Source: Phycisphaerales bacterium (GTDB lineage Bacteria; Planctomycetota; Phycisphaerae; Phycisphaerales; UBA1924). From it: a DNA stretch of 64,000 nucleotides. The position numbers were made by a program, and so were the translations under genes. The stretch spans positions 29,637 through 93,636 of the forward strand of contig JAVEWV010000009.1 in the NCBI GenBank assembly GCA_034004365.1, given 5' to 3'. This document shows positions 12,650-60,521 of the stretch, in pieces (positions within the stretch are counted from its first letter, which is position 1; each line of letters starts with the position of its first letter). Under the pieces are notes generated by a model, which made no database searches, was not told the DNA's origin, and was given only the letters and a program-made list of their open reading frames with translations.

Positions 12650-12952
12650 GTCCTTCTCTCCTCTCCCACCGCAACGCCACCGCCCCGGAACGTCGGGGGC
12701 GTGGGCGAGCTTCTGGTTTTCGCGGGAGTGCGACCCCGGGAACCCAAACCCGGGACACCGATCCGCGACCCCTGACGGGGTAGTCTTGTCTCACCCATGA
12801 GAGTAACGGGGCCGGCCCAAACCACCAAAGGCTTTTTGACTGGTTTTGCCTATCCCAGCAGAGATTCCGGCCCGGCATAGATTCTCGGGCCCATCGCAAG
12901 AACCCCCCCGGCGCCGGGCCTTAGGAACGCGCCAGCGGGTTAGGATTCGCCC

Positions 12953-17331: not shown

Positions 17332-20088
<2,757 letters not shown>

Positions 20089-26650: not shown

Positions 26651-26925
26651 AAATAACCCCCCAACCACACGCCCAAGGATTCCCCAACTCATTACCGGAC
26701 GCGTACTTGGTATCCTACCTGCATATACCCCGCGAAGCACGCGGGAACCGCCAGATTTATCGGCCCAACTCCCGCGGTCTGGGGATGCTCCCCCAAAGTC
26801 TCGTGGCATCCACCGCGATCGCGCCGTCATCACACCGGACAACGTCGCGCATCTCACGCGGAATGTGAACGAGGGAAAGATCCTGCCCGATTTCGGCGGG
26901 AACTTCGCCTGCTGCGTCGCGGTGA

Positions 26926-27672: not shown

Positions 27673-27827
27673 CACACACCCTCCCGTTTCGACATCGCGG
27701 GCACACACCCCGCGCCGATTCTCGGACGCCCCGATTCTAACTCTGGGCTCCGATAAATAAAAGTCCCACCCGAATTATTTTCTGCGATTTGCACAATCCC
27801 CTGACGCGGGGTGTGTATTTGCGCGGC

Positions 27828-46426: not shown

Positions 46427-46653
46427 CACGCCGGGAAGCAATTCGTAATCTCCACTGCGCAATGTGTTTGCGCGTCGTTCTCGTGATCTCGGATCGGAAG
46501 ATCGACCATTCCGGGCACGGGCGATCGCCTTCTCGGTCCGCTTCGTATCGTCCGCACGCAGGGGGGAACTGCTCGGTTCGCGCACATCGCGTGCCGATCT
46601 TTGTTTTCGACGCGTCGCGCGAGTTCGCGCGTTCTCGGTCGCTGGGCCTTCTG

Positions 46654-48246
46654 GTGCAAGGGGAAGACATCCTGCCACCCGCTCATGTCGCATCCCGTCC
46701 CTGGCCCGTGCTCGCCGCGATCGCGCTCACGATCGCGATCACCCTGCCCTTCATCCTCTGGCCCCACTTCGATGGGCGCGGGCGCGCCTCCTACGACCAG
46801 AAGAACTACCACGAGCGCGTCGTCCGCCAGTTTGAGGCCGAGTGGCCCACACCCGATGTGGGGGATTACCTCAGCGCCACCACGCCGGGCTATCACCTCG
46901 CGCTCGCCGCGGCGGCGAAGCTCGGGCTTGAGTCGACCCGCGCGTTACGCATTGCCGGGCTTGGGTTTGTGATCGCGCTGGTTGGGATCGTCGCGTGGAC
47001 CGTCTGGGTCCGAACGGGGCGCGACAACTGGTTCGCCTTCGCCGTCACGCTGCCGCTGATCGCGTCCGTGTACGTCAACAACTCCGCGGTCTGGCTCCTG
47101 CCCGACAACGCGGCATGGTGCCTCGTCACACTGATCCTGGCGCTCGCCACCCGGGAGCGATGGTCGGCGTCCGCGCTCGTCGCGATGGGGCTCGCGCTCG
47201 TCGGGCTCGTGCTCGCGCGGCAGATCCACGCGTGGGCGGCCGGGGCGATCTATGCGTGTTGCTGGATGAACGGTAACACGCTGTGGCCCAGGGATGTGCG
47301 AGAACTCCGCGGGCGGGTCGGGCGTGTGGCCCTTGGAGCAGTGGTTTCGCTCCCCGCCTTCGGGGTGCTCGCGTGGTTTGTCTCGATCTGGGGCGGGCTC
47401 ACGCCCCCCCGGTTCCAGGGTCGCTACGGCGGGTTCAACTGGGCGACGCCAGCGTTCTTCCTTGCGCTGCTCGGCCTCGGGTCCGCGTTCTTCCTCGGGT
47501 ATCTCATCCCTACTTTGGGGCGTCTATGGCGCGAGGGGCCGACGCCGCTGGCGCTGGCCGCCCTCGGCGGATTCATCGTAAGCGTCATTCCAGAAACGTC
47601 TTATGACCAGATGGCGGGACGCTGGACCGGACTGTGGGGCGTGGTGCGGATGGTCCCGGTGTTCGCCGATCGCTCGCCGCTCCTGATCGCGATGTCGGCA
47701 TGGGGCGGGGCGATGCTCTACGCGTGGTCCGCGGCGGTGGGGGGGCGATTCCGCTGGGTGATGCTGGGATCGATCGCGGGCTTCGTCGCGGCCCAGACCA
47801 CGAGCCCGGAGCTGTGGCAGCGTTATCACGAGCCGTTCGTGCTGATCGTGCTCGCGCTCTGGGCGGCGGAAGTGGTCCGCGAGGAGCGACGGGCGGGCCC
47901 CGTGAATCGGGGGGATGAGGCGGCGGAGGACGCCGCGGGCGGCTCGCGGTTCCCCCGGCGCCTGCTGGGCCTGGCGCGGATGGGCGATCCGGCGATGCTC
48001 GCGCTGCTCCTCGGGCTCATCACGGCCCGGGGCTACTGGACCGCCCGGGTGACGACGCTCCACCCGCTGGAGGAGATCCAGGACGTGATCGATCGGGTCC
48101 CGCGCGCCGAGCGTGGGCGGAACGCGGCAGAATCTGGCCCGGATGCCGGGGTGCCACGAACCGGGGCGGGCGGGGGGCCGCTAGATGGAGTCCCCGCTTC
48201 GGCGGGTGATGGTGATGCCGGGGGCGGATCGGACCGAGAAGAATGA
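46654..48246 (+). CDS. polytopic membrane protein, GT-C glycosyltransferase-like
   Basis: At least 9 hydrophobic helices, with a first loop [34 protein letters not shown]. There is no in-frame ATG near the first helix, so the GTG at 46654 (or 46708) is only a guess. Function is inferred from topology and context. Confidence 0.45.
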
Positions 48247-48295
48247 GCCCGGCGCGCCGCCCGCTGGCGTCCCGGCAGACGAGAGGACGTTGGCG

Positions 48296-49345
<1,050 letters not shown>

Positions 49346-49425
49346 GGCGAGCGACGCAGGGTCGGGCGCTAAGGACGGGATCATCTGAATTTGTTGGCGG
49401 CAAGCGAGGCGATGAGGAGGCGGCG

Positions 49426-50700
49426 ATGTCGGGCGTTGCGCGCGAATTGATGCATGGCGCGGCACGCGCGTTCTCCTCAATGTCGCGTTCACGCGCGAAC
49501 GACGGCGCGTTGATCATTCCGCCGGCAGGTCCGGGCAGCCTGGGCGATGAAGCGATGTGCGAGGCGGTCGCGTGCATGCTGCGTCGTGCGGGGGTTTCTC
49601 CGATCACACTGCTGGCGCGGCCGGGGCTCGCGCCGTGGCCCGATCTCGGGGGCGTCGGGGCGTACGTCGACCCATCTGGCGGAGGAGTCGTTCGTTCGGC
49701 GCGGGTGCTGTCGCTCATGCGACGTCATCGGTACCTCTTCGTGATCGGGGCGGACTGTATTGACGGGCACTACAGCGTTGCGAACTCGGTGCAACTGATC
49801 ACTCTCGTTGATTGTGGCGCACGGATGGGATGTATTGCAACCCTCGTTGGAAGCAGCTACAAGGCCGGCGCACGCTCGGAGACAGCGCGGGCCTTGCGGA
49901 GAGTGCACCCGCCAGCGAGATTGTGCTCGCGCGATCCGGTGAGCCAGGAACGCATGAGCGCGGCGAGCGGGCGGACGATTCAACTCGTCGCGGACGCGGC
50001 GTTCATGCTCGAGCCGAGGGAGCTGATGAGCGATCAGGAGCTCGTTCGTGGATGGATCGAGGCACAGGGCGACCGGCCGATCCTTGGCGTCAACTTCAAT
50101 CACCAAGTCCTGCACGGTGCTTCGCAAGAGAGCGTTGATGCACTGCACGCCTCCTACGTCGAGGTGATCAGACGCTCGCATCGCGAGCTTGATGCTTCGA
50201 TCCTCTTGATTCCGCACGACTACCGGCGCGAGCCCAACGACGCAACCTACGCGGATCGACTCTTCGCGCGGCTCTCGCCCGAGCTTGGCGATCGGATCCT
50301 GCGTCTTCCGGGTCGGCGGACGCCGGGTGAGATCAAGCACGTCGCGGGCATGGTTGACGTCGTGCTGACGGGGCGGATGCACCTGGCGATCGCGTGCCTC
50401 GGGCGCGGAACGCCGCCGGCGTGCGTGACGTATCAGGGCAAGTTCGAGGGGCTGATGAGGCACTTCGGGCTCGAGGGTATGACGCTTGATCCCGAGCGCG
50501 CGTGCGATGCGGACGCGCTGTGGGTGATGGTGTCGGGCGCAATGTCGCGGAGCGCGGCGATGCGCGAGCAGATCCGCTCGCGACTGGAATCGATCCAGGC
50601 GATGAGCCGCCAGAACTTCCCGGACGAGCTGCGCTCGAAGATCGAGGCGTCGCTGTCAGCGGAGCGGGACGGCGCGCCACGGGAGCGTGTCGCGGTGTGA
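49426..50700 (+). CDS. polysaccharide pyruvyl transferase family protein
   Basis: GSLGDEAM near the N-terminus and the C-terminal VVLTGRMHLAIACLGRGTPPACVTYQGKF block are typical of the WcaK/CsaB-type pyruvyl transferase family. Confidence 0.65.
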   Translation: MSGVARELMHGAARAFSSMSRSRANDGALIIPPAGPGSLGDEAMCEAVACMLRRAGVSPITLLARPGLAPWPDLGGVGAYVDPSGGGVVRSARVLSLMRRHRYLFVIGADCIDGHYSVANSVQLITLVDCGARMGCIATLVGSSYKAGARSETARALRRVHPPARLCSRDPVSQERMSAASGRTIQLVADAAFMLEPRELMSDQELVRGWIEAQGDRPILGVNFNHQVLHGASQESVDALHASYVEVIRRSHRELDASILLIPHDYRREPNDATYADRLFARLSPELGDRILRLPGRRTPGEIKHVAGMVDVVLTGRMHLAIACLGRGTPPACVTYQGKFEGLMRHFGLEGMTLDPERACDADALWVMVSGAMSRSAAMREQIRSRLESIQAMSRQNFPDELRSKIEASLSAERDGAPRERVAV

Positions 50701-50739
50701 TGGGGCGCCCTGCCGGCGCATTGAGAGATCGCACAGGGC

Positions 50740-52281
50740 ATGACGCCGCGGACGCAGAATCTCGGGCAGAAGACCGCTCGTGGCATGGCGATGCTGACGG
50801 CGCAGACGCTGCTCGGCAAGGTGATCAGCTCGCTCGGGCAGCTCGTGCTCGCGTGGATCCTCGTGCCAGAGGCGTTCGGTCTCGTCGCGCTGGCGTACAC
50901 CGTGATGTCGTTCAGCCGCATCATCGAGCAGATCGGGCTGCGGGAGATCCTCATCCGCGCACAGGACCGCTTCGAGCGCTGGGAGAACAGCGCGATGTGG
51001 CTCGCCGGGCTGCTGGGACTGGGCGTGGGCGTCGTGACGCTCGCGACGGCTCCACTGGCGGCAACGCTGTTCGAGGCGCCGGGGATCACAGGGCTGATCT
51101 GGGTGCTCGCGGCGGCGACGCCGTTCTGGAGCCTGTCGCAGATTTGTGAGGCCAAGCTGGAGCGCGACCTGCGGTTTGCGCGAGTGACGACGATCCAGTT
51201 CGGTGCGCAGACGGGGCAGGTCGTGCTCTCGGTGGTATTCGCGCTCATCGGATTCGGCGCGTACTCGTTTGTAGCGCCGCGCCTGGTGGTGGGAATCGTG
51301 AAGCTGGTATATGTGTGGCGCATGGTGCGGCCCCGGGTGCGGAAGAGCCCACAACTGCATCGCTGGGGCGCGCTGGTCCGCCAGGGGCTTCCGATCACGG
51401 GCGCGGTGCTGTTCCAGACGATCACCGCGAACGCGGACTACTTCGTGCTGGGCCTGATCGCGACAAAGGCAGTGGTTGGTTTCTACTTCTTCGCGTTCAA
51501 CCAGAGCACGCAGATCGTGCAGATCTTTGCGAGCAACCTGATGCGGGTCATGGTCCCGAGCCTGAGCACGCTCAAGGACGATCCGAAGCGACAGGTGGAC
51601 GCCTTCCTGAGGGGGACGCGCCTGCTGGCGTGCGCGGCGGCCCCACTGTGCGTGATGCAAGCAGCGTGCGCCGGGCCAACGCTGCGCCTGCTCTACGGCG
51701 AGCGATGGGTGGAGGCGATCCCGCTCCTGCAGATCCTGTCGTCCGCGGCGGTCTTTGGGTTCATCTCATGGCCCACGATCTCGCTGCTTATGGCGCAGGG
51801 ACGCTATACGACGCGGATGGTGCTGACGGGATGTGCGGCGGGCGTGTTCACGCTTGTGGTCACGATTGGTGCGCTCGTGGGACGGGAGTTCGAGGCCCCG
51901 GCGCTCGGGGCGGCGATCGCGGTCGCGTGCTATCGCGTGGTGATGAGCCCCATGCAGGCGTACGTGGCATGCCGCAGTGCTGGGGTGCGGTGGGCGACGA
52001 TCCTGCACGTCTTCTTCATGGCCGCGCTGGGCGCGGGGCTGACGATCGGTCCGGCGTGGTGGCTTGGCACGACCCTGCCCGGGCTTGTGCTGCACGACGC
52101 CGGGGGGCACGGCATCGTGCATGAGCTGATGCACGTCGCGATCGTGCTGACGCTTGGCCCGTCGCTGTATGTCGCGTGGCTGCGGCTGTCGCAGCGCGAG
52201 CTGTGGCGCGAGCTGGTGTCGCGCGGGCTGGGCGTGCTGCCGGGCGGCGTGGCGCGTCGCGTGCCGGCGTGGGTGCGGTAG
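50740..52281 (+). CDS. oligosaccharide flippase (Wzx-like, MOP superfamily)
   Basis: 513 aa with about 12-14 TM helices. The N-terminal pattern GQKTARGMAMLTAQTLLGKVISSLGQLVLAWILVPEAFGLVALA is typical of polysaccharide biosynthesis (Wzx) proteins. Confidence 0.7.
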   Translation: MTPRTQNLGQKTARGMAMLTAQTLLGKVISSLGQLVLAWILVPEAFGLVALAYTVMSFSRIIEQIGLREILIRAQDRFERWENSAMWLAGLLGLGVGVVTLATAPLAATLFEAPGITGLIWVLAAATPFWSLSQICEAKLERDLRFARVTTIQFGAQTGQVVLSVVFALIGFGAYSFVAPRLVVGIVKLVYVWRMVRPRVRKSPQLHRWGALVRQGLPITGAVLFQTITANADYFVLGLIATKAVVGFYFFAFNQSTQIVQIFASNLMRVMVPSLSTLKDDPKRQVDAFLRGTRLLACAAAPLCVMQAACAGPTLRLLYGERWVEAIPLLQILSSAAVFGFISWPTISLLMAQGRYTTRMVLTGCAAGVFTLVVTIGALVGREFEAPALGAAIAVACYRVVMSPMQAYVACRSAGVRWATILHVFFMAALGAGLTIGPAWWLGTTLPGLVLHDAGGHGIVHELMHVAIVLTLGPSLYVAWLRLSQRELWRELVSRGLGVLPGGVARRVPAWVR

Positions 52282-52297
52282 CGATCGCGGCGCGGGC

Positions 52298-53512
52298 TCA
52301 GCCGTGCTTGGCCCACTCCCAGGTCTTGACCGCGCTCGTGTCCCTGCCGAGGCGCTGGCAAAGGTTGGCGGCGAAGCATGCGCGGGTGTTCGCGGGATCG
52401 TGAAAGACACGAAGGCGGCGCGTGGCGTCGGTGGGCGCCCACGACGGGGCACGCTCGAGCGATTCGGTAAGGCCGCGAGCGAAGGCCTGTTCATCGCTCA
52501 CGTTACACGTCCAGCCGAGTCCGAAGTGCGGCACGACCGCCCGGAACCATCCATAGTCGCCCGTGAGCACCGGGCGGTTCGCGGCCATGGCGCGGAGGCA
52601 GATGTTCGAGAGCCCGACGTGGTTGGGATGGCAGGTGCACACAACGTCGGCGGCACTCATCGACCACGCGAGCTCATCGTCGGAGATGTAGCGATCCATC
52701 ACGATGACGCGACCCTCGCGCACGAGCGGCGCGAGTGCGCCATCGAGCAGCGTGCGCACGATCGTGTCCGTCCGGCCGGCGAGGAGCAGGCGATCGTTCG
52801 ACGCAAGCTTTGCGGACGCGAACGCCTTGAGCAGCAGGTCCGCGCCCTTGCGCGTCGAGATTGCGCCGGAGAGGGAAATGAGCCGGCCGTCCTCGGGGAG
52901 AGAGAGGCGCGAGCGGGCATCGCGCTTGTCCATGTCGGGCACGTCATCGACAGGGTCGGGCAGGACGCTCGCGCGGCGGGCGAGGGGATGGCCGTGGGCG
53001 GCGAGCCACTCGTACGCGACCACGTCTACGTACTGCACGCGGGCGAGCGGCGCGTGGGTGAGGGCCGCGAGGCGAAGCCGGCGATACACACGATCGCGTA
53101 CTCCGCTTGCGGGGTAGGCGTACGGCCCGCGGTGCATGCAGGCCTCGACCGACACGCGCTTGCGACGGAAGTGCGCGGCGGTGCGCGAGCCGGGCAGCCC
53201 GAGGATCTGCGCGAGCCCGTCCGCGGAGGGCAGGAACACGTGGTCGGCGTGGTGGGCGTCGATCGCGTGCTCGAGCGCGTGGTTGGCAGCGCGACCCTTG
53301 TTGAGTGTGCCCTTGGCGCGTTCGAACGGAACGCCGTGGAACTGGAAGCGATCCCCGAGCGGGGCAAGCTGGACACGAAAGGCGTCGGTGTCGAGCGCGT
53401 CCTGTCCGAGCACCACGCTGACCTCACAGAGGCCCTCGAGCGCGGGAAGGAGCTGTCGGACGTAGGTGAGTCGGTGCCCGCCGGCGTCGGGCTCGAAGAT
53501 CAGCGCGTGCAT
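52298..53512 (-). CDS. GT-B fold glycosyltransferase (GT4-like)
   Basis: 404 aa. N-terminal MHALIFEPDAGGHRLTY. C-terminal donor-binding region (RLLLAGR....DELAWSMSAADVVCTCH...GLSNICLRAMAANRPVLTGDYG). Confidence 0.65.
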   Translation of the reverse strand: MHALIFEPDAGGHRLTYVRQLLPALEGLCEVSVVLGQDALDTDAFRVQLAPLGDRFQFHGVPFERAKGTLNKGRAANHALEHAIDAHHADHVFLPSADGLAQILGLPGSRTAAHFRRKRVSVEACMHRGPYAYPASGVRDRVYRRLRLAALTHAPLARVQYVDVVAYEWLAAHGHPLARRASVLPDPVDDVPDMDKRDARSRLSLPEDGRLISLSGAISTRKGADLLLKAFASAKLASNDRLLLAGRTDTIVRTLLDGALAPLVREGRVIVMDRYISDDELAWSMSAADVVCTCHPNHVGLSNICLRAMAANRPVLTGDYGWFRAVVPHFGLGWTCNVSDEQAFARGLTESLERAPSWAPTDATRRLRVFHDPANTRACFAANLCQRLGRDTSAVKTWEWAKHG

Positions 53513-53687: not shown

Positions 53688-54407
53688 ATGGCGCGGCGTT
53701 CGATGGCGGCGGCGGTGTCTCGCAGGCTCGCGTGCGCGGCGCTCGTGGGGGTCTCGGGCACCGCATGGGCGGACGACGTCGTGGTGGTCGACCTGACCGG
53801 CGTGCGTCTGCAGAACGGGCTGAACCAGAGCGTGACGAGCGGGGCGGACACCATCGACCCCGACACCCTGTACAGCTATGTGATCGACGGCATGGTGCGG
53901 GGTGAGTCGGGCCTGCTCGCGGCGTTGGTCCCGAATCCCAGGCCGCTGGGCGAGGTGCTTGAGCTGTTCGCGGCGGGCGCATCGAGCGCGCTGGTGGGCA
54001 CGGGGTGCAACCCGAGCGGGCAGGTGCCGTTCGACGTCGTCAACGCGCCGCTCTCCGGCTCGTCGGTGGTGCTGGGCATAACGGTGAATGCGTCGGTCAC
54101 GCTGTCGGCGGGGATCGATGCGAACGGTGTGGCATACTTCAGCGCGACGAACGTGGTGCTGACGCCGTCGTCGCTGGTGGGCTCGGCGGTGTTCACGAGC
54201 GGGAGCGTGACGGTGCGGGGGCTGCGTCCGTGCCTGGCGGACTGGGACGCGTCGGGCGGCACGCCCAACAGCAGTGATTTCCTTTCCTACCTAAACGATT
54301 GGTCGCTGGGCGACGCGTGCGCCGACCTCGCGCCGCCGGGCGGGGACGGCAACTTCGACTCGTCGGACTTCCTGGCATTCCTGAACGCGTACGCGGGCGG
54401 ATGCTGA
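53688..54407 (+). CDS. secreted protein with C-terminal Cys-bracketed dockerin-like module
   Basis: AAGGAGAG precedes the ATG. Signal peptide MARRSMAAAVSRRLACAALVGVSGTAWA. Last 58 aa: CLADWDASGGTPNSSDFLSYLNDWSLGDACADLAPPGGDGNFDSSDFLAFLNAYAGGC-stop. Confidence 0.7.
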   Translation: MARRSMAAAVSRRLACAALVGVSGTAWADDVVVVDLTGVRLQNGLNQSVTSGADTIDPDTLYSYVIDGMVRGESGLLAALVPNPRPLGEVLELFAAGASSALVGTGCNPSGQVPFDVVNAPLSGSSVVLGITVNASVTLSAGIDANGVAYFSATNVVLTPSSLVGSAVFTSGSVTVRGLRPCLADWDASGGTPNSSDFLSYLNDWSLGDACADLAPPGGDGNFDSSDFLAFLNAYAGGC

Positions 54408-54442
54408 TCGGGGCGCGGGAATTCCCTGTGGTGCCAGTGGAA

Positions 54443-54526
54443 TGCGGGCGACAGGAATCGAACCTGCACGGCCTTTCGGCCACGGGAACCTAAATCCCGC
54501 GCGTCTGCCAGTTCCGCCACGCCCGC
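54443..54526 (-). tRNA. tRNA-Leu (anticodon UAG)
   Basis: Hand-folded cloverleaf. Acceptor GCGGGCG/CGCCCGC. 3-bp D stem. Anticodon arm CGGGA-UUUAGGU-UCCCG. Long variable arm GGCC-GAAA-GGCC. T arm GCAGG-UUCGAUU-CCUGU. Discriminator A. CCA is not encoded. Confidence 0.85.
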
Positions 54527-54665
54527 GGATTCAGCGCAATCCTAACCATGCGGACCCGTGGTTCGCGGACGCGACCCTTGAACCACCCCGCACCCTCCCG
54601 GTAGGCTCGTGGCCGGTCGCGCAGAGTGTGTGACGCGAGCAGGGGTATCCAGGGAGGAGAGCGAT

Positions 54666-57230
54666 ATGGTGCGTGCGCGTGATGTTGTTGCCGCGTGTGG
54701 ATGTGTTGTCGCTGGCGCGAGCCTCGCGGCGGGACAGGCTTTCGGTCTCGAGCCGACGAGCGCGACGGGCGAGCTTGCGAGCCCGCGCATGGTCCTGCCC
54801 GCGCCGCAGCTCGAGCTGAACGCGGGAGCACCATGGGAGACGCGGGGCGGCCCGGGCGTTCCGACGGTGTACCAGCCCGGCGTCCCCGCGGAGGGTGACG
54901 CGCCCTCGGCGTCTCGCTTCACGCCGGACGGATCGCAGATCATCGTCGCGCACCGCGACACGAAGAACCTGATCGTGTACGACGCGAACACGCGGGCGTT
55001 CGTCCGCGAGATCGTGCTGTCGGGCTCGCCGCTCGACCTCGACGTCAGCGCCAACGGCATGTACGCCGTGACGGCGAACGGGATCGAGGACACCGCGTCG
55101 ATCGTGAATCTCGCGACGGGTGTGGAGGTCGCGACGGTTGCCGTGGGTGATACGCCGGGCATCGTGCGCATCACGCCCGACTCGACGAAGGCGGTCGTGG
55201 GCAACGCGCTGAGCGCCGACTTCTCGATCATCGACCTGGCGTCGAAGACGGAGGTCAACCGCTGGAGCGGCGGCGATTTCTCCGTGACGCTCTCGTTCGC
55301 GCCCGAGAACTCCACGGTGGAGATCCGGTACGGCACGTTCGAGCTGCCCGACAGCAACACCATCCTGCACCCGCGCCGGTTCTCGAGCCAGATAGCGCTC
55401 ATCGACATCGACACGGGCACCGACACGACGCTCGCTTCGGCCGCGAACCCCGCGGGCGTGGCGCTCATCCCGGGCGGGGGCACGAAGGCGTACATCTCCC
55501 ACGCGAGCAACACGCGCACGATCAGCGTCGTCGACCTCACGACCAAGACCATCAGCCAGACATGGTCCACCACGACCGACCTGACCGGACCGATCGCGGT
55601 CGAGATGGGCGGGGCGTCGGCGGTGGTCGCGGTGCAGAACGCGGTGCGGTTCGTCAACATGACCACCGGCGCCGAAAGCACCAACCGAAACACCGCGAGC
55701 GTGAACCAGATCTACACCACCGCGGACGGCTTCTACGCCATCTGCATCGGGTTCAACGGGAGCCTGCTCCAGTACGCGACGCAGGCCATCGTCAAGAACA
55801 CCAACACCCTGGTCTCCGCGTCGCACGGCTCGGTCTCGCCCGTCGACCAGCGGGCCGCGATGTTCTCGACGACCTTCGGCGAGGACATGGTCGTGGTGAG
55901 CACCGACGGACCCTCCGGCGGGCTCGAGAGCTTCACCCTCTCGGGGCCCGAGCCCGAGGTCGACAAGCCCCGCACCGTCGCGGTCAGCCCCGACGGCAGC
56001 AAGGCCGCGGTGGTGGGCATCCTGTCGGACAGCGTCACCGTCTACAACACCGCGACGGGTGCCGTGCTCGGACGGGCCAAGACGGGCATGCGTCCCGCGG
56101 AGGCCCAGTTCACGCCGGACGGGTCGAAGATCGTGGTCGCGAATCTCGATGACGCGTTCCTGACCATCGTGGACACGACAACCTTCGCGGTGACGAACGC
56201 GCCGATCTCGCGCCGCGGCGGGATCGTCGAGATCTCGCCCGACTCGCAGACCGCGTACGTCCCGGTTATCGCCGATGGCGACGGCGTGTGGCGCGTGAAC
56301 CTGAACACGGGCACGTCGTTCGGTGGCAAGCTGCTCACGCCCTCCGCCAGCGGCGGCATGGGCGGCGTGGGATACCTCTACCAGCAGAACAGCGGCGCGG
56401 CCCTTTCGCCCGACGGTCAGACCTTCGTCACCGCGAACAGCTTCGAGAACTCCATCTCGATCATCAACACCGCGACGTGGTCCGTCGTCGCGAACGTCCC
56501 GACGGGGTCCTTCCCGACCTACGTCGCGTTCAGCCCCGATTCATCCAAGATCTACGTCTCGATCAAGAACTTCAACACGACGAGCGGCGCCTCGGACCGC
56601 GTCTCGGTCGTCAGCAACGCCGGCGCCGCGAGCGCCGTGCTCAGCAACATCACCGTGGGCGACCAGCCCTGGGTGCTCATCCCCACCGCCGACGGCCAGA
56701 AGCTCTACGTGCTCAACTATGGCAGCCAGAACATCGGCGTGGTGAACCTGAACACCAACACGCAGGTGAGCACAATCCCGATGCCGAACCTCATCAGCGA
56801 CATGGCCTACTCCGCGAGCGCGAACTGCCTCGTCGTCAACACGGGCAACTCCACCGTCACCGTCGGCAACCCGGTCGGCATCGCCTTCGCGCAGGACGGC
56901 GAGCTGAACGTCATCGATACCACCACGGACACCGTGACCGAGATCATCGACGTCGACCACGTCTCTTCCGACGTCGCGATCGACGACGACCTCACCGTCG
57001 CCGCCCTCCCCGGCATCTTCAGCGACGAGTTCATCCTCGTCGATTTCACCCCGGGCTGCGCGGGCGACTGGGATAACAGCGGCGGGCTGAACAGCTCGGA
57101 CTTCCTCGCCTACCTGAACGACTACTCCGCCCAGAATCCTGTCGCGGACCTCGCCCCGCCCGGCGGTGACGGCCTGTTCAACAGCTCCGACTTCCTGGCC
57201 TTCCTGAACCTCTACGCCGCCGGCTGCTGA
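54666..57230 (+). CDS. YVTN-type beta-propeller repeat protein with C-terminal Cys-bracketed dockerin-like module
   Basis: AGGGAGGAGAG precedes the ATG. Signal-like N-terminus. Many repeats of the type SPDGSK..V(A)N...D.(V/I)(S/T)(V/I)(I/V)D..T..V. Last 57 aa: CAGDWDNSGGLNSSDFLAYLNDYSAQNPVADLAPPGGDGLFNSSDFLAFLNLYAAGC-stop. Confidence 0.8.
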   Translation: MVRARDVVAACGCVVAGASLAAGQAFGLEPTSATGELASPRMVLPAPQLELNAGAPWETRGGPGVPTVYQPGVPAEGDAPSASRFTPDGSQIIVAHRDTKNLIVYDANTRAFVREIVLSGSPLDLDVSANGMYAVTANGIEDTASIVNLATGVEVATVAVGDTPGIVRITPDSTKAVVGNALSADFSIIDLASKTEVNRWSGGDFSVTLSFAPENSTVEIRYGTFELPDSNTILHPRRFSSQIALIDIDTGTDTTLASAANPAGVALIPGGGTKAYISHASNTRTISVVDLTTKTISQTWSTTTDLTGPIAVEMGGASAVVAVQNAVRFVNMTTGAESTNRNTASVNQIYTTADGFYAICIGFNGSLLQYATQAIVKNTNTLVSASHGSVSPVDQRAAMFSTTFGEDMVVVSTDGPSGGLESFTLSGPEPEVDKPRTVAVSPDGSKAAVVGILSDSVTVYNTATGAVLGRAKTGMRPAEAQFTPDGSKIVVANLDDAFLTIVDTTTFAVTNAPISRRGGIVEISPDSQTAYVPVIADGDGVWRVNLNTGTSFGGKLLTPSASGGMGGVGYLYQQNSGAALSPDGQTFVTANSFENSISIINTATWSVVANVPTGSFPTYVAFSPDSSKIYVSIKNFNTTSGASDRVSVVSNAGAASAVLSNITVGDQPWVLIPTADGQKLYVLNYGSQNIGVVNLNTNTQVSTIPMPNLISDMAYSASANCLVVNTGNSTVTVGNPVGIAFAQDGELNVIDTTTDTVTEIIDVDHVSSDVAIDDDLTVAALPGIFSDEFILVDFTPGCAGDWDNSGGLNSSDFLAYLNDYSAQNPVADLAPPGGDGLFNSSDFLAFLNLYAAGC
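57057..57230 (+). repeat. dockerin-module coding repeat, copy 1
   Basis: 174 nt that align without gaps to 60348-60521. I hand-counted about 16 mismatches. The last ~54 nt differ at one position. Confidence 0.8.
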
Positions 57231-57271
57231 AGCCCCTCGGCGGCGAGAATCGCCACATCACGCCTCCGATT

Positions 57272-57308
57272 CCCCCGTCCGCCTCCGAGCGGGCGGGGGA
57301 TTTTCTTT
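57272..57308 (+). terminator. rho-independent terminator
   Basis: 11-bp stem CCCCCGTCCGC/GCGGGCGGGGG (one G-U pair), loop CTCCGA, then ATTTTCTTT. Confidence 0.65.
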
Positions 57309-57369
57309 GGGCGGGGGCATTGGGGGCGGGAAGGGTGAATGGCCGAAACCCTTGGGTGCCCGCGCCCGG

Positions 57370-57981
57370 ATGGGTATGCTGTTCGGGGCGTCCCTCGTGG
57401 CGCTCGAGCGCCAAGGACAGACTGGAGCCGGTCCGGTGAAACGCCGTCGCACATCGCACACCAGCCGACTCGCCCGCCTGCGGGCGCGGGTGGTGGATGT
57501 GGTGTGGGCGGTGGTGATCCTGGCATTCTCGCTCGCGAGCCAGGGCTGGGTCCCCGGCTCGGGGGCCTTCGGCGGGCAGTCCGGGCACAACGTCTGGGCC
57601 CGCTGCGGCTCGTCGATGTGCGCCTGCGAGTCGAACGTGCCGCTCGCCGAGCACCGGGGCGTCGCCGCCTTCCGTCAGAAGCTCTGCCCACTGTGCCCGG
57701 ACGACCCGGCCGACGTGCCGTGCGATCGGGACGAGCCGAGCCGTGACGATCGTTCCCCCGCGTTCAAGCCGCTGCTGGTCCTGGCGAAGAGCGGCGGACT
57801 GGGCGTGGCGTGCCCGACCGACCTCGCGTCGATGGGCGTCTCGCTCTGCCTGCTGGGCCTTTCGCGGCCCTCCATCAGCGTGGAGTGCGGGCCCGAGGTC
57901 CGGAGCGTCGCGTGCGCGACCCTGGATTCTCGCCCCGAGTCCCTGTCCCTCGCCGTCCCCGAGCCCCCGCCCCGAGCCTGA
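57370..57981 (+). CDS. hypothetical Cys-rich membrane-anchored protein
   Basis: Good GC3 bias. One hydrophobic helix (VVDVVWAVVILAFSLAS), then CGSSMCACES...KLCPLCPDD...VPCDRD and further Cys. Start moved to 57370 so that it does not overlap the upstream terminator. No family recognised. Confidence 0.4.
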   Translation: MGMLFGASLVALERQGQTGAGPVKRRRTSHTSRLARLRARVVDVVWAVVILAFSLASQGWVPGSGAFGGQSGHNVWARCGSSMCACESNVPLAEHRGVAAFRQKLCPLCPDDPADVPCDRDEPSRDDRSPAFKPLLVLAKSGGLGVACPTDLASMGVSLCLLGLSRPSISVECGPEVRSVACATLDSRPESLSLAVPEPPPRA

Positions 57982-58026
57982 CGAGCCGCGATCTCTTCGC
58001 GTGCGCGCCGGCGTGGAGCGTGCCTA

Positions 58027-58827
58027 TTGGCCCGTTCCTGCCCGACGCGTGTTCCGCTCGTTGCACTCCTGCTGCGGAGGCTTCTCCCGTTGCGCTTCGA
58101 ACGTCGGGCGAATCCGGGCCGATCGGGCTCGGGCTTCACGCTCATTGAATTGCTCGTGGTCATCGCGATCATCGCGCTGCTGATCGGCGTGCTCCTGCCC
58201 GCACTGGGCTCGGCACGTGAGAGTGCGCGGGGCGTCAAGTGCCTCGCGAACCTTCGCTCGATCGGGCAGTCGGTGGCGCTGTACCACAACGCCTTCGATG
58301 GGCACTACCCCCTCTCCAGCCACGCCACCGGATCGAGCATCGATCCCGGCGCATGGCTGTCGTCGCTGGTCGAGTACGGCCTGATCGACGACACCCGCTA
58401 CTGCCCGACCGACCTCCAGCGCAACAAGACGACAGCCGCCGATTTCGCACGCACGACCAGCTACATCACCAACGACCACTTCGAGCCGCTCACCGCGGGC
58501 ATCGACTTCGATCCGTTCAGCGGCCGCACGCTCCCCGGGGGGCGGACGCGCGCGATCACACGGATCGAGCAGATCCCGCGTCCGACGGCGACGATCTACG
58601 CGGTGGAAGCGGCGGACCCGCTCGATGCGGGCGCGGTGGTGGACCATCTGCACTCTGTGGGGTGGGCACGAGCGGAGCAGGTCGCGCAGCAGATCGCGGT
58701 CGAGCGGCACAAGGGATCGGCGTCGTACCTCTTCGCCGATTTGCACGCCGCGGCGATCCCGTGGGGCGCGTTGCGAGACGAGTTCTCGCCCGAGACGAGC
58801 CCGTTCAATCCCGAGACCGCGCGCTAG
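58027..58827 (+). CDS. prepilin-type N-terminal cleavage/methylation domain protein (H-X9-DG / DUF1559-like)
   Basis: [45 protein letters not shown] is the type IV pilin-like leader and helix. C-terminal [12 protein letters not shown] resembles H-X9-DG. A TTG at 58090 would give a more usual short leader. Confidence 0.8.
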
Positions 58828-58936
58828 CGCGGGAATCAACCAGTTCGTTGTGTGTGCTTTGTTGCGCGGGCGCGCTGCGCCCAGCGCTCATGAAAACGTC
58901 GCGATCGTTTGGGACGATCAGAGAGTGAGTTCAGCC

Positions 58937-59587
58937 ATGAAGATTCGTACGACCGCCGCCATCGTTCTCGCCGCCCTCGCCCCCGCCGCCCTCGCGCAGG
59001 ACCACGGGCACATGACCGTGGATACCGCGAGCGGCACGCCGGGCGATCAGATCGTCATCAGCACGTACCCCACCGAGACGAACTTCTCGATCGTGGGCGG
59101 CGTGCTGCACCGCGCGGGCGTCCCCGCCGTGTTCGACCTGACCGATTGGCAGCCCTCGGGCTCGTTCCAGGGCTGGTTCCTGGGCCAGACCATGACGCTC
59201 ACCGCCGACTTCTTCGTCGCGACGGGGCGCCTCGATGGGGGCAATTTCGCCTTCGAGGTCGCGGGCCTGACGCCCGAGGGCGGCGCCGGCCCGGGCCGCT
59301 TCGCGATGGTGAGCCAGCACGGCACCGACTTCGAGCTCGAGGCCGACAGCGACGGCGCGACTCGTGCGGATCGCACCTGGGTCATCGGCTTCAACATGCA
59401 TCCGCACGGGCAGCGCGTCATGCTCCAGGGCTCCGGGCTGTACCGCGTCGACCTCGTCGCGTGGGACACCAACGGCGTGTACACCGACTCTGCACCCGTT
59501 TCTTTCTACGTGCAGACGCCCGCGCCCGGCGCGCTCGCCACGCTCGGCGGTGGGCTTGTGCTCGTCTCGCGTCGCCGTCGGCGCTGA
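58937..59587 (+). CDS. secreted His-cluster domain protein with PEP-CTERM-like (P-A-P) sorting signal
   Basis: Signal MKIRTTAAIVLAALAPAALA|QDHGHMTVDT. C-terminus TPAPGALATLGGGLVLVSRRRRR. Paralogous to 59748-60521. Confidence 0.7.
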   Translation: MKIRTTAAIVLAALAPAALAQDHGHMTVDTASGTPGDQIVISTYPTETNFSIVGGVLHRAGVPAVFDLTDWQPSGSFQGWFLGQTMTLTADFFVATGRLDGGNFAFEVAGLTPEGGAGPGRFAMVSQHGTDFELEADSDGATRADRTWVIGFNMHPHGQRVMLQGSGLYRVDLVAWDTNGVYTDSAPVSFYVQTPAPGALATLGGGLVLVSRRRRR

Positions 59588-59747
59588 GCAGTTCGTGAAG
59601 CAACACACGCTCGGGGCTGAGCACCCGCGCGTGAACGATCAATGAGGTCTGGCGCGGCGTCGGAGAGATTCGCCGCCCGCCATTAAGGAACAAACCCGGC
59701 GCGCAGCACGCACGCCGCCAGAACGCAATGAGACACGGGAGATCGAC

Positions 59748-60521
59748 ATGAGCACACGAGCCATCGCGGGACTGATCGTCGCAGCGTTCGCCTCCGCGGC
59801 GATCGCGCAGGACCACCACCACATGACCGTCGACACCTTCACCAGCCTCGACGGGCCCAAGATCAAGATCGTCGTCGGATTCCTCGGAGGCGAGGAGTCC
59901 TTCTCGCTCGATGAAAATGGCACCCTGCTCTTTGACGGCACGCCGCACACGTACGAGCTGACGAGCGTCTTCTCGAGCGGCTCGCTCGCGGGCTGGGGCG
60001 CGGTGCAGGGACTCACGCTCACGAGCGACTACTACTTCGCGACCGGACGCCTCGTCGGAGGAAACTTCCACTTCGAGATCACCAATGCCGAGCGTCTGAA
60101 CGGCTCCACCTCCGCGTTCGCGCTGGGATACTTCCCGAGCGCGACGCCCTTCGTCGACGCGCGCAGCGACGGGGCCGATCGCGCCGCCCGCAGCTACACC
60201 GTCGGCAACGGCGGGCACCAGCACGGGCAGTTCATGGCGCTCCAGAATCCGGGCGTGTATCGCATCACCCTCGCCGCGTGGGATTCCAACGGTGTGTATC
60301 TCGATTCGGACCCCGTGAACTTCCTCGTCGAGGTCCCGGGCTGGACGTGCGCGGGCGACTGGGACGAGAGCGGCGAACTCAACAGCTCGGACTTCCTCGC
60401 CTACCTGAACGATTACTCGGCCCAGAACCCTGCTGCGGACCTCGCCCCGCCCGGGGGCGACGGGGTGTTCAACAGCTCCGACTTCCTCGCCTTCCTGAAC
60501 CTCTACGCCGCCGGCTGCTGA
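59748..60521 (+). CDS. secreted His-cluster domain protein with C-terminal Cys-bracketed dockerin-like module
   Basis: Signal MSTRAIAGLIVAAFASAAIA|QDHHHMTVDT. Last 57 aa: CAGDWDESGELNSSDFLAYLNDYSAQNPAADLAPPGGDGVFNSSDFLAFLNLYAAGC-stop. Confidence 0.75.
   Translation: MSTRAIAGLIVAAFASAAIAQDHHHMTVDTFTSLDGPKIKIVVGFLGGEESFSLDENGTLLFDGTPHTYELTSVFSSGSLAGWGAVQGLTLTSDYYFATGRLVGGNFHFEITNAERLNGSTSAFALGYFPSATPFVDARSDGADRAARSYTVGNGGHQHGQFMALQNPGVYRITLAAWDSNGVYLDSDPVNFLVEVPGWTCAGDWDESGELNSSDFLAYLNDYSAQNPAADLAPPGGDGVFNSSDFLAFLNLYAAGC
60348..60521 (+). repeat. dockerin-module coding repeat, copy 2
   Basis: See copy 1 (57057-57230). Confidence 0.8.

What the first reader, a model, noticed from the sequence alone, without database searches (positions are those of the whole stretch)
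53688..60521. Shared ~57-aa Cys...GC dockerin-like C-terminal module on three unrelated secreted proteins
Three proteins with unrelated passenger domains all terminate in the same module. The passengers are a domain of about 180 aa with no recognised family, a YVTN-type beta-propeller array of about 800 aa, and a His-cluster domain of about 175 aa. The module is C-x-x-DWD-x-SG-x-x-NSSDFL-x-YLND-...-DLAPPGGDG-x-F-(N/D)-SSDFLAFLN-x-YA-x-GC-stop.

The module has two segments resembling EF-hand/dockerin calcium loops followed by an F-L-x-x-L-N helix. It is bracketed by a first Cys and by a Cys that is the very last residue, which suggests a disulfide-closed, calcium-dependent docking or sorting unit. 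I recall that tails of this kind have been given a generic 'GC-type dockerin' label in automated annotation. To my knowledge no receptor, cohesin-like partner or processing enzyme has been demonstrated, and none is recognisable in this window. Together with the PEP-CTERM-like tails, this points to two parallel surface-display systems in one organism.
Basis: partly seen in the sequence, partly recalled or inferred. Interest (0 to 1): 0.7.

Follow-up and report, generated by a model that had tools for sequence, protein, structure and literature searches.

The report
GC-type dockerin tails on secreted proteins
Three neighbouring secreted proteins of a Phycisphaerales bacterium end in the same small calcium-loop "dockerin" module bracketed by two cysteines; NCBI already catalogues this tail type, and it probably plugs many different proteins onto one receptor on the cell envelope that nobody has yet identified.

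Summary
Three + strand genes (53688-54407, 54666-57230, 59748-60521) have passengers with no significant similarity to each other and end in the same 57-58 aa module, C-x-x-D...G-C-stop. The module is already known. All three tails pass NCBIfam NF041540, "GC-type dockerin domain-anchored protein" (44-55 bits, cut-off 29), and GenBank already names these proteins that way (MAG, Phycisphaerales bacterium).

The module belongs to the dockerin/F-hand family. Pfam Dockerin_1 is sub-threshold on these tails but hits canonical relatives. A family profile finds solved dockerins (E 3e-6 to 1e-3). The AlphaFold model (pLDDT 92.7) is loop-helix-linker-loop-helix, and its best PDB matches are dockerins, though the Foldseek E-values are not significant.

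An exhaustive search found 1,618 clusters, and about 95% of the best 150 carry the module at the C-terminus. The two cysteines are present together or absent together, which suggests a disulfide version of the dockerin terminal "clasp". At least 16 carriers appear to come from this one genome, among them a metallopeptidase and lamin-tail and PA14 proteins.

A paralogue of the third passenger, 161 bp upstream, carries a PEP-CTERM-like tail instead. No cohesin or other receptor is in the window. Docking is inferred, not shown.

Verdict: correct but already catalogued; moderate interest.

The parts
53688..54407 (+). Gene A, 239 aa. It has a Sec-type signal peptide (MARRSMAAAVSRRLACAALVGVSGTAWA|DD), a beta-rich passenger of about 150 aa with no known family, and a GC-type dockerin tail.
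   Evidence: ORF and start. GenBank product is 239 aa, 'GC-type dockerin domain-anchored protein'. There are 20 orthologues in Phycisphaerae. AlphaFold pLDDT is 88.1, with no PDB fold match.
54231..54404 (+). Module of A, 58 aa: CLADWDASGGTPNSSDFLSYLNDWSLGDACADLAPPGGDGNFDSSDFLAFLNAYAGGC.
   Evidence: NF041540, 43.9 bits against a cut-off of 29, profile positions 1-67. Coordinates.
54666..57230 (+). Gene B, 854 aa: signal peptide, a YVTN/YncE-type beta-propeller array, and a GC-type dockerin tail.
   Evidence: TIGR02276, PF21783 and PF10282 hits. GenBank accession MDX9911681.1.
57057..57227 (+). Module of B, 57 aa.
   Evidence: NF041540, 48.3 bits. Compared with C: 44 identical codons, 9 synonymous and 4 non-synonymous differences.
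57271..57300 (+). Terminator-like hairpin 40 nt after the stop codon of B. The stem has 12 pairs, 10 of them G-C, followed by TTTTCTTT.
58937..59587 (+). Gene D, 216 aa. It is a paralogue of passenger C but ends in a PEP-CTERM/MYXO-CTERM-like tail (TPAPGALATLGGGLVLVSRRRRR) instead of the dockerin.
   Evidence: 44% identity to passenger C, E 4e-42. Tail scores 17.9 bits against TIGR03901, cut-off 20. Regex match.
59748..60521 (+). Gene C, 257 aa: signal peptide (…AAIA|QDHHH), a His-rich passenger of about 180 aa, and a GC-type dockerin tail.
   Evidence: GenBank accession MDX9911685.1. The mature protein has only two Cys, and both are the bracket Cys.
60348..60518 (+). Module of C, 57 aa. Loop 1 is D-W-D-E-S-G-E-L-N-S-S-D, followed by helix 1 and a linker. 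Loop 2 is D-L-APP-G-G-D-G-V-F-N-S-S-D, followed by helix 3 and G-C.
   Evidence: NF041540, 54.8 bits. AlphaFold pLDDT 92.7, helices at 15-26, 30-32 and 45-57 of the 59-aa construct. Best Foldseek hits are dockerins.

Best explanation
The three tails are members of the curated GC-type dockerin family (NCBIfam NF041540). This family is a Phycisphaerae/Planctomycetota branch of the dockerin (duplicated F-hand, calcium-loop plus helix) superfamily.

Proposed mechanism:
1. Each protein is exported by its N-terminal Sec signal peptide. This is read from the sequence.
2. In the oxidising periplasm, the Cys two residues before the Gly/Ala that precedes loop 1 pairs with the C-terminal Cys. That would be a covalent version of the N/C-terminal 'intramolecular clasp' that stabilises clostridial dockerins. 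This step is inferred.
3. The two loops bind calcium. Loop 1 is canonical (D-x-D-x-S-G-x-x-N-x-x-D). Loop 2 carries a 3-residue A-P-P insertion with Gly at ligand position 3, so its site is non-canonical. This step is inferred.
4. The folded module plugs its passenger onto one shared receptor on the cell envelope. The receptor is most likely a cohesin-like module of an anchored scaffold. In this way dozens of unrelated cargo proteins of this genome would be displayed together. This step is inferred by homology; no receptor was found.

The tail is one of two interchangeable localisation devices in this organism. The other is a PEP-CTERM-like tail.
For: **Family membership.** Scores are 43.9, 48.3 and 54.8 bits against a cut-off of 29, over the full profile. 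GenBank uses the same name.

**Homology to real dockerins.**
- Pfam Dockerin_1 gives E 0.025 on tail C.
- PF00404 is precomputed on 22 of 54 relatives and hits 7 of 66 carriers at E<=1e-4.
- The family profile hits solved dockerins: 2y3n_B at 3e-6, 3ul4_B at 8.6e-5, 1ohz_B at 8.9e-5 across both loops, and also 2mte, 1daq, 2ccl, 6kg9 and 5nrm.

**Fold.** The AlphaFold model has pLDDT 92.7 and the order loop, helix, short helix, loop, helix. Six of the eight best PDB matches are dockerins, with TM about 0.5.

**Position.** 144 of 152 proteins have the module at the C-terminus. In all, 1,618 clusters match.

**Cysteine pairing.** Both Cys are present in 153 modules and both absent in 4. The two bracket Cys are the only Cys in mature C. 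The first Cys lies in the -3 to -1 segment that forms the clasp in every intact dockerin structure (PMC3821032).

**A shared partner.**
- At least 16 carriers have GenBank accessions in one block (MDX9910252-MDX9912877), which I take as one genome. They lie on at least 11 contig lengths.
- Their tails are 70-90% identical although the passengers are unrelated.
- B and C differ by 9 synonymous and 4 non-synonymous codon changes, and the similarity stops at the module edges.
- Loop positions 10-11 correspond to the cohesin-recognition residues of clostridial dockerins (from my own knowledge of those complexes). They vary between modules but match between the two repeats of one module in 89 of 143 cases, against 20 +/- 3.5 in shuffles.

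**Anchor role.**
- Passenger C has a paralogue 161 bp upstream that carries a PEP-CTERM-like tail instead.
- Orthologues of A carry GC-type tails or Cys-less dockerin tails interchangeably.

**Cargo.** Among 66 carriers scanned across the family, the cargo includes M12B, M14 and S8 peptidases and a lamin-tail domain protein. The M12B, M14 and lamin-tail classes match those in the hypothesised Phycisphaerae 'planctosome' (PMC6461901).
Against: - No cohesin or any other candidate receptor is in the window or in the neighbour loci inspected. I could not scan the rest of the genome.
- Pfam Dockerin_1 is below its gathering score on all three tails (15.2 against 22.9 bits).
- The Foldseek E-values are not significant (0.65 or worse). 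This is usual for a 59-residue domain but is still not proof.
- Loop 2 departs from the calcium-loop consensus.
- I could not measure the Cys-Cys distance, because the model coordinates are not exposed.
- A test of Cys-count parity across carriers was uninformative (66 even, 51 odd).
- The symmetry at positions 10-11 could reflect intragenic conversion or structural constraint rather than a dual binding mode.
- No paper or experiment on this family was found.
Confidence: 0.6

Rival explanations
1. The module anchors proteins by binding a non-protein envelope component, such as a cell-surface or capsular polysaccharide or peptidoglycan, rather than a cohesin-like protein. It would be the analogue of SLH domains binding pyruvylated polymers.
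For: No cohesin is recognisable in the window. Genes A to C lie directly downstream of a polysaccharide cluster that includes GDP-mannose 4,6-dehydratase, a polysaccharide pyruvyl transferase, a Wzx-type flippase and a glycosyltransferase. A conserved tail on many cargo proteins fits any single shared ligand.
Against: The other carriers are scattered over at least 11 contigs, so the adjacency to the polysaccharide cluster is probably coincidental. All solved relatives found are protein-binding dockerins or EF-hand proteins. I know of no dockerin that binds a glycan.
Confidence: 0.15
2. The tail is a calcium- and disulfide-stabilised folding or stability cap with no dedicated partner, for example to protect against carboxypeptidases or to aid solubility.
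For: The Cys bracket and calcium loops would give a very stable terminal knob. No receptor is known.
Against: A stability cap does not explain three observations. Tail sequences are near-identical across at least 16 unrelated cargo proteins of one genome. Helix-start positions 10-11 are lineage-specific yet symmetric within a module. The tail is exchanged with sorting-type tails on orthologous or paralogous passengers.
Confidence: 0.12
3. The tail is a secretion or sorting signal read by a translocation or processing machine and possibly removed. It would be analogous to T9SS C-terminal domains or PEP-CTERM/exosortase signals.
For: It is strictly C-terminal. It occurs on many secreted cargo proteins. 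It alternates with a PEP-CTERM-like tail on paralogues.
Against: It has no transmembrane helix or basic cluster, so it is not a PEP-CTERM-type signal (sequence). Its fold is a dockerin-like helical pair, not the beta-sandwich of T9SS C-terminal domains. Tandem and N-terminal copies exist (P0003, P0060, P0108), which a terminal signal would not need. No sortase-like enzyme lies nearby.
Confidence: 0.1
4. The resemblance is a chance or low-complexity artefact, or a gene-calling artefact of a high-GC genome.
For: The genome is about 68-70% G+C and has many spurious ORFs.
Against: Curated-model scores are well above cut-off. There are 1,618 homologous clusters. The third-position GC of these frames is 0.86-0.92. 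Shine-Dalgarno-like sequences lie upstream of the starts. A terminator-like hairpin follows B. Synonymous changes outnumber non-synonymous ones in the module.
Confidence: 0.01

Closest known systems
NCBIfam NF041540, 'GC-type dockerin domain-anchored protein' (dockerin_GC)
   Same: All three tails match the whole 67-position profile above the curated cut-off. They are C-terminal, end in Gly-Cys, and come from a Phycisphaerales genome. GenBank already uses this name for them.
   Different: These tails belong to a sub-type with a 3-residue A-P-P insertion in loop 2 (ADLAPPGGDG) and Ser instead of Asp at loop-1 position 5. A further one-residue insertion in loop 1 is present in A and many paralogues but not in B or C. 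The family has no published function or partner.
Type I dockerins of clostridial cellulosomes (Pfam PF00404; for example the Xyn10B dockerin 1OHZ_B and the C. cellulolyticum dockerin 2VN5)
   Same: Both have two duplicated loop-helix (F-hand) segments with Asp at loop positions 1 and 12, a size of about 57 aa, and a C-terminal position on diverse cargo. Tails are near-identical within one genome, and positions 10-11 are symmetric within a module. Profile and fold searches retrieve these dockerins first.
   Different: The tails score below the Pfam gathering threshold. A Cys...Cys bracket replaces the non-covalent terminal clasp. The host is a diderm planctomycete. The cargo is peptidases, propellers and adhesin-like domains rather than glycoside hydrolases. 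No cognate cohesin has been identified.
'Planctosome' hypothesis for Phycisphaerae (Nemodlikiaceae), Andrei et al., ISME J 2019 (PMC6461901)
   Same: It proposes non-cellulosomal cohesin-dockerin assembly in Phycisphaerae. The cargo classes match: M12B reprolysin-like and M14 peptidases, and lamin-tail-domain proteins.
   Different: That model is itself only bioinformatic. It does not describe the Gly-Cys or Cys-bracketed dockerin type. In it the lamin-tail protein carries a cohesin, whereas here a lamin-tail protein (P0004) carries the dockerin. Whether this MAG has cohesins was not testable.
PEP-CTERM/exosortase (and MYXO-CTERM) C-terminal sorting signals
   Same: Both are C-terminal tails shared by many unrelated secreted proteins. 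In this window one occurs on a paralogue of passenger C, so the two act as alternative anchors.
   Different: The GC tail is a folded soluble domain of 57 aa. It has no transmembrane helix or Arg cluster, and no processing enzyme is implied.
EF-hand calcium-binding proteins (Pfam PF00036/PF13405; calmodulin, E. histolytica CaBP)
   Same: They share the 12-residue calcium-loop logic. There are weak Pfam hits (E 0.03-0.13) and profile hits to EF-hand chains in the PDB.
   Different: The module has no entering helix before either loop, and the two loops are spaced as in dockerins. EF-hand hits cover one loop or need a gap.

Membership tests
NCBIfam NF041540 GC-type dockerin | Score at or above the curated cut-off (29 bits) over the full profile | tested here: met
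   43.9, 48.3 and 54.8 bits, profile positions 1-67 of 67.
NCBIfam NF041540 GC-type dockerin | Module at the extreme C-terminus, ending in Gly-Cys | tested here: met
   All three end in GC-stop. Family-wide, 144 of 152 proteins have the module within 3 residues of the end, and 100 of 150 end exactly in GC.
NCBIfam NF041540 GC-type dockerin | Occurrence in Phycisphaerae/Planctomycetota on diverse secreted passengers | tested here: met
   Named sources are all Phycisphaerales, Phycisphaerae or Planctomycetota. True modules among 118 DNA-pattern loci occur only in such genomes. Passengers are diverse. The taxon sample is small.
Dockerin type I (Pfam PF00404) | Score at or above the Pfam gathering threshold (22.9 bits) | tested here: not met
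   The best score is 15.2 bits, E 0.025, on tail C; there is no hit on A or B. Canonical relatives of the same family do carry PF00404.
Dockerin type I (Pfam PF00404) | Two duplicated segments, each a calcium-binding loop followed by a helix, joined by a short linker | tested here: met
   Sequence repeats NSSDFLAYLNDYS and NSSDFLAFLNLYA match at 10 of 13 positions. The AlphaFold model has a loop at 1-14, helix at 15-26, short helix at 30-32, loop at 33-44 and helix at 45-57.
Dockerin type I (Pfam PF00404) | Calcium ligands at loop positions 1, 3, 5, 9 and 12 in both loops | tested here: inconclusive
   Loop 1 has D, D, S, N, D, which is compatible. Loop 2 has D at 1, D at 5, N at 9 and D at 12, but an A-P-P insertion after position 2 and Gly at position 3. 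Actual calcium binding cannot be tested here.
Dockerin type I (Pfam PF00404) | Fold similar to solved dockerins | tested here: inconclusive
   Six of the eight best PDB matches are dockerins (2vn5, 2mte, 2ozn, 4uyq, 4dh2, 5m2s), with TM 0.47-0.54, but E-values are 0.65 or worse. The sequence profile hits dockerin chains at E 3e-6 to 1e-3.
Dockerin type I (Pfam PF00404) | Binds a cognate cohesin module | not testable with these tools
   No cohesin is in the window.
Cellulosome system | Dockerin-bearing cargo is mainly carbohydrate-active enzymes assembled on a multi-cohesin scaffoldin | tested here: not met
   Cargo is peptidases (M12B, S8, M14), beta-propellers, and lamin-tail, PA14, GSDH and FGE-sulfatase domains. 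No scaffoldin was seen.
PEP-CTERM / exosortase sorting signal | P-E-P-like motif, transmembrane helix and basic cluster at the C-terminus | tested here: not met
   The GC tails have none of these. Five other ORFs in the window do, and one of them passes TIGR02595.
EF-hand (Pfam PF00036/PF13405) | Helix-loop-helix with an entering helix; score above threshold | tested here: not met
   Scores are 12.5-14.1 bits against cut-offs of about 25. The model has no helix before loop 1.

The most novel reading that the evidence does not exclude
GC-type dockerins do not use a classical cohesin. They would define a Phycisphaerae-specific, disulfide-locked display system with a new kind of receptor (protein or glycan). 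That system would assemble dozens of peptidases and binding proteins on a diderm cell surface, in parallel with an exosortase-type system. The A-P-P-insertion sub-type of this genome would be a private specificity class.
Probability: 0.25. Interest if true: 0.65.

Novelty: already known. Interest (0 to 1): 0.38.

Why it matters
Dockerins are best known from Gram-positive cellulosomes. Here the same device is used on a large scale by diderm planctomycetes: 1,618 clusters at 50% identity, and at least 16 cargo proteins in this genome. The cargo is peptidases, propellers and adhesin-like domains, and the module appears to be locked by a disulfide. The receptor is unknown. Finding it would show how Phycisphaerae organise their surface enzymes and would test the 'planctosome' idea. 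It could also provide a compact, covalently clasped docking pair for protein engineering. For this scan, the main point is that the finding is correct but is already captured by routine annotation.

Tried and rejected
- **Single-module protein search.** It found nothing, because the word index needs shared 5-mers. The exhaustive HMM search and an alignment query replaced it.
- **Both genome-contig scans.** Neither was designed well. The A1 patterns gave 44 stretches, none confirmed by tblastn. The DNA pattern for DFLAFLN mostly hit Streptomyces by chance. Only the seven Phycisphaerae/Planctomycetota loci held real modules.
- **Exact look-up of protein C.** Its contig was not on record.
- **Neighbourhoods of three relatives (P0155, P0174, P0213).** They showed no conserved neighbour and no cohesin.
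- **Hypothesis that passenger A is a cohesin, making A an adaptor.** Rejected. The model is confident (pLDDT 88) but no cohesin is among the 50 PDB matches listed, and no match has TM above 0.3.
- **Cys-count parity as a disulfide test.** Uninformative: 66 even against 51 odd.
- **ORF 57208-57981 in the gap between B and the pseudopilin gene.** No family matched and the translation looks implausible; it is probably not a gene.
- **Peer et al. on non-cellulosomal dockerins (PMC3035643).** Not held in the library.
- **Rfam scan.** It found only a tRNA in the window.


Full report
**1. The observation**

The window is about 68-70% G+C. Three + strand ORFs end in nearly the same peptide followed directly by a stop codon:
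- A: ...RPCLADWDASGGTPNSSDFLSYLNDWSLGDACADLAPPGGDGNFDSSDFLAFLNAYAGGC
- B: ...PGCAGDWDNSGGLNSSDFLAYLNDYSAQNPVADLAPPGGDGLFNSSDFLAFLNLYAAGC
- C: ...WTCAGDWDESGELNSSDFLAYLNDYSAQNPAADLAPPGGDGVFNSSDFLAFLNLYAAGC

With the most plausible starts, the genes are A 53688-54407 (239 aa), B 54666-57230 (854 aa) and C 59748-60521 (257 aa). These starts are ATG codons preceded by GGAG-like sequences, and they agree with the GenBank products. The modules are at 54231-54404, 57057-57227 and 60348-60518.

The three modules share 87% mean column identity. A six-frame regex scan finds SSDF[LF] only in these three tails, twice in each.

The passengers show no significant similarity to each other:
- A has no Pfam or NCBIfam family.
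- B is a YVTN/YncE-type beta-propeller array.
- C has no family above threshold.

All three begin with Sec-type signal peptides, judged by inspection of the sequence.

**2. What the module is called**

All three tails match NCBIfam NF041540, "GC-type dockerin domain-anchored protein". Scores are 43.9, 48.3 and 54.8 bits against a curated cut-off of 29, over the whole 67-position profile.

The window comes from a metagenome-assembled "Phycisphaerales bacterium". GenBank already names A, B and C with exactly this product name (MDX9911681.1 is B, MDX9911685.1 is C, and P0209 is A).

No paper in the library mentions the family by name or accession.

**3. Is it really a dockerin?**

On these three tails Pfam Dockerin_1 is sub-threshold. 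The best result is E 0.025 and 15.2 bits against 22.9, covering profile positions 1-50 of 57. EF-hand models score similarly weakly.

The exhaustive profile search shows that the window tails are a sub-type of a much larger family. The family consensus is C-x-A-D-W-N-x-D-G-x-V-N-T-x-D-F-L-A-F-L-N-x-W-x-A-G-D-P-x-A-D-L-N-G-D-G-x-V-N-T-x-D-F-L-A-F-L-N-x-W-x-A-G-C. That is two textbook D-x-N-x-D-G-x-x-N-x-x-D loops, each followed by a helix.

Three results tie that larger family to real dockerins:
- The canonical relatives do carry Pfam PF00404: 22 of 54 hits have it precomputed, and 7 of 66 carriers match at E<=1e-4.
- A profile of 45 diverse modules hits solved dockerins significantly and over both loops: 2y3n_B at 3e-6, 3ul4_B at 8.6e-5, 1ohz_B at 8.9e-5, plus 2mte, 1daq, 2ccl, 6kg9 and 5nrm. 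EF-hand proteins are also hit.
- AlphaFold2 on module C with 47 aligned sequences gives pLDDT 92.7. The order is loop (1-14), helix (15-26), short helix (30-32), loop (33-44), helix (45-57). This is the dockerin arrangement, with the exiting helices starting at loop position 10.

In Foldseek against the PDB, six of the eight best matches are dockerins (2vn5, 2mte, 2ozn, 4uyq, 4dh2, 5m2s), with TM 0.47-0.54. The E-values (0.65 or worse) are not significant for so small a domain.

I conclude that the module is a homologue of dockerins (F-hand pair). It does not formally meet the Pfam type I threshold.

**4. Peculiarities of the window sub-type**

Compared with the family consensus, the tails of this genome differ in three ways:
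- Ser replaces Asp at loop-1 position 5.
- A and many paralogues have a one-residue insertion in loop 1 (SGGxPNSSD). B and C do not.
- Loop 2 has a three-residue A-P-P insertion (ADL-APP-GGDG), which leaves Gly at ligand position 3.

Loop 1 is still compatible with calcium binding. The loop 2 site is non-canonical, and whether it binds calcium is open.

**5. The cysteine bracket**

In the 45-sequence alignment the only invariant columns are the two Cys, the Asp at loop-1 position 12 and the Asp at loop-2 position 1.

Among 162 near-complete modules, 153 have both Cys and 4 have neither. Four of the five apparent singles are overlapping hits on two three-repeat modules (P0038, P0128) whose outer ends carry the pair. 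The fifth is the first module of P0003, which has an upstream Cys and no C-terminal Cys.

Of 150 proteins, 100 end exactly in GC and 36 have one extra residue after the Cys. A free Cys carboxylate is therefore not required.

In mature protein C the two bracket Cys are the only cysteines.

Slutzki et al. (PMC3821032) showed that in every intact dockerin structure, residues -3 to -1 before the first loop contact the C-terminal residues. This non-covalent "intramolecular clasp" stabilises the calcium-bound fold and cohesin binding. That paper does not mention a disulfide. The first Cys of the GC module sits at -2 in that numbering.

The most economical reading is a disulfide clasp formed in the oxidising periplasm of a diderm. 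This is inferred. I could not measure the distance because the model coordinates are not exposed.

**6. Distribution and cargo**

The three-module profile finds 1,618 clusters (50% identity representatives) at E<=1e-3 among 1.84 billion proteins. In 144 of 152 retrieved proteins the module ends within 3 residues of the C-terminus.

The exceptions include tandem copies (P0003, P0060, P0130). P0108 has an extra N-terminal copy besides its C-terminal one. Other exceptions are distant proteins with several weak repeats, such as P0040.

Every source that names an organism says Phycisphaerales, Phycisphaerae or Planctomycetota. Among 118 loci pulled from genomes by a loose DNA pattern, only the seven Phycisphaerae/Planctomycetota loci contain true modules.

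Of the 19 best-scoring A-P-P-type carriers that I looked up, 15 have accessions in one GenBank block (MDX9910252-MDX9912877). With A, that makes 16 carriers. They lie on contigs of at least 11 different lengths. I take the block as one genome; this is an inference from the contiguous accessions.

Passengers in that genome include an M12 metallopeptidase, a lamin-tail-domain protein and a PA14 protein. Across the family they also include S8 and M14 peptidases, FG-GAP, LVIVD and other propellers, GSDH, FGE-sulfatase and beta-helix proteins.

**7. Evidence that the tail is a localisation device with a shared partner**

- *Selection on the module alone.* B and C tails differ at 13 of 57 codons, 9 of them synonymous. 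Identity drops to about 35% immediately outside the module. The module is therefore a discrete unit under purifying selection, not a recent copy.
- *Tail exchange on a paralogue.* Passenger C is 44% identical (E 4e-42) to the passenger of gene D (58937-59587), 161 bp upstream. D ends instead in TPAPGALATLGGGLVLVSRRRRR, a PEP-CTERM/MYXO-CTERM-like tail.
- *Tail exchange among orthologues.* A has 20 orthologues across Phycisphaerae. Their tails are GC-type, or a Cys-less dockerin with a long linker, or a Cys-rich-loop variant. Tails are exchanged on a constant passenger.
- *Symmetry at the recognition positions.* Loop positions 10-11 are the ones that set cohesin specificity in clostridial dockerins (from my own knowledge of those complexes). 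Here they vary between modules (SS, FN, TL, TQ, TN, VS and others). Yet they are identical in the two repeats of one module in 89 of 143 cases, against 20 +/- 3.5 (maximum 32) in shuffles. Without the SS/SS class it is 47 of 101 against 7.5 +/- 2.5. This is the pattern expected for a symmetric, dual-mode binding surface co-evolving with a partner. Relatedness and intragenic conversion are confounders.

**8. The partner**

None is recognisable. I scanned essentially all plausible ORFs of the window. They are housekeeping genes and a polysaccharide cluster:
- Housekeeping: DnaA, the Pol III alpha subunit, sigma-54, two Clp-type AAA+ ATPases and gamma-glutamyltranspeptidase.
- Polysaccharide cluster: GDP-mannose dehydratase, pyruvyl transferase, flippase and glycosyltransferase.

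There is no cohesin and no exosortase. Neighbourhoods of three relatives were uninformative.

I tested whether the unknown passenger of A might itself be a cohesin. The model is confident (pLDDT 88.1) and beta-rich. It has no PDB match above TM 0.3, and no cohesin is among the 50 matches listed.

The literature offers a precedent but no proof. Andrei et al. (PMC6461901) proposed a cohesin/dockerin "planctosome" in Phycisphaerae, with M12B and M14 peptidases and a lamin-tail anchor. The Phycisphaerae isolate Limihaloglobus sulfuriphilus is reported to have a two-cohesin scaffoldin (PMC11557425). The cargo classes seen here fit that picture.

**9. Genomic setting of the finding**

A and B are separated by a tRNA-Leu(tag) gene on the opposite strand (54443-54526). 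B is followed by a strong terminator-like hairpin (57271-57300).

Between B and D lie about 800 bp with no convincing gene, followed by a prepilin-type N-methyl/DUF1559 pseudopilin gene (58027-58827).

The three carriers are therefore neighbours but not one operon. With at least 13 further carriers elsewhere in the genome, the clustering carries little functional weight.

**10. Verdict**

The module is a member of a curated family and is already annotated as such, so its identity is not new.

This analysis adds six points:
- a sequence and fold bridge to bona fide dockerins;
- the paired-cysteine (disulfide clasp) argument;
- the A-P-P-insertion sub-type;
- the within-module symmetry at positions 10-11;
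- the large cargo set in one genome;
- the exchange with PEP-CTERM-like and Cys-less dockerin tails.

Confidence is about 0.95 that this is an NF041540 dockerin-family module. It is about 0.6 for the full mechanism (export, disulfide clasp, calcium binding, docking to a shared envelope receptor). The receptor remains the open question.

Noticed in passing
window 54443-54526 (-): A tRNA-Leu gene (anticodon tag) lies on the opposite strand between gene A and gene B, so A and B are not co-transcribed.
   Followed up: yes
window 11202-11735 (-), 12122-12790 (-), 25901-27055 (-; stop-to-stop extent, start codon not set), 26929-27774 (-), 58937-59587 (+): Five ORFs end in the same kind of PEP-CTERM-like tail: [VT]P[AL]P, a Gly/Ala/Leu-rich hydrophobic stretch, then RRRR. 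Only 12122-12790 passes TIGR02595 (16.8 bits against 16). The others are sub-threshold for the PEP-CTERM and MYXO-CTERM models. No exosortase gene is in the window.
   Followed up: partly
window 53772-54230 (+) (passenger of A); proteins P0210-P0228: The passenger of A is a conserved Phycisphaerae-specific domain with 20 orthologues at 47-65% identity, all 224-251 aa. Its AlphaFold model is confident (pLDDT above 90 for most of residues 31-180). It has no match in the PDB above TM 0.3, so it may be a fold not yet represented there.
   Followed up: partly
proteins P0217, P0224, P0226, P0228 (orthologues of A; alignment A6): This is a dockerin variant in which calcium-ligand positions are replaced by cysteines: CPANCDxSTxxPxLNVxDFxCFL...ANCDCSxxxPxLNVxDFxCFxNxFAAGC. 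It suggests loops held by disulfides instead of calcium.
   Followed up: no
protein P0003 (MDX9912877.1, apparently the same MAG, another contig): This secreted 256-aa protein consists only of a signal peptide and three tandem dockerin-like modules that lack the Cys bracket. It could be an adaptor or a competitor in the same docking system.
   Followed up: no
window 41300-42679 (-), and cumulative GC skew minimum at about 44000-48000: dnaA lies next to the point where GC skew changes sign from negative to positive. The chromosomal replication origin is therefore probably within the window, a few kb from the finding.
   Followed up: no
window 48185-53512: A surface-polysaccharide cluster lies directly upstream of gene A. 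It holds GDP-mannose 4,6-dehydratase (48185-49345), polysaccharide pyruvyl transferase (49426-50700), a Wzx-type flippase (50740-52281) and a group 1 glycosyltransferase (52298-53512, - strand). Pyruvylated polymers are the ligands of SLH anchors in other bacteria, so this is a possible but untested link to anchoring.
   Followed up: no
window 57231-58026: About 800 bp between the terminator of B and the pseudopilin gene have no convincing gene and no Rfam match. The only long ORF there (57208-57981) has no family and an implausible translation.
   Followed up: partly
window 59748-60341 and 58937-59500 (passengers C and D): Both paralogues start their mature chain with QDH[GH]HMTVDT and share a second His cluster (GGHQHGQ and NMHPHGQ). 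This suggests a metal site. The only family signal is a weak hit to NCBIfam 'choice-of-anchor M' (16 bits against a cut-off of 55).
   Followed up: partly
window 8267-11104 (+) and 17191-20088 (+): Two paralogous ClpA/ClpB/ClpC-type double-AAA+ ATPase genes lie 6 kb apart.
   Followed up: no
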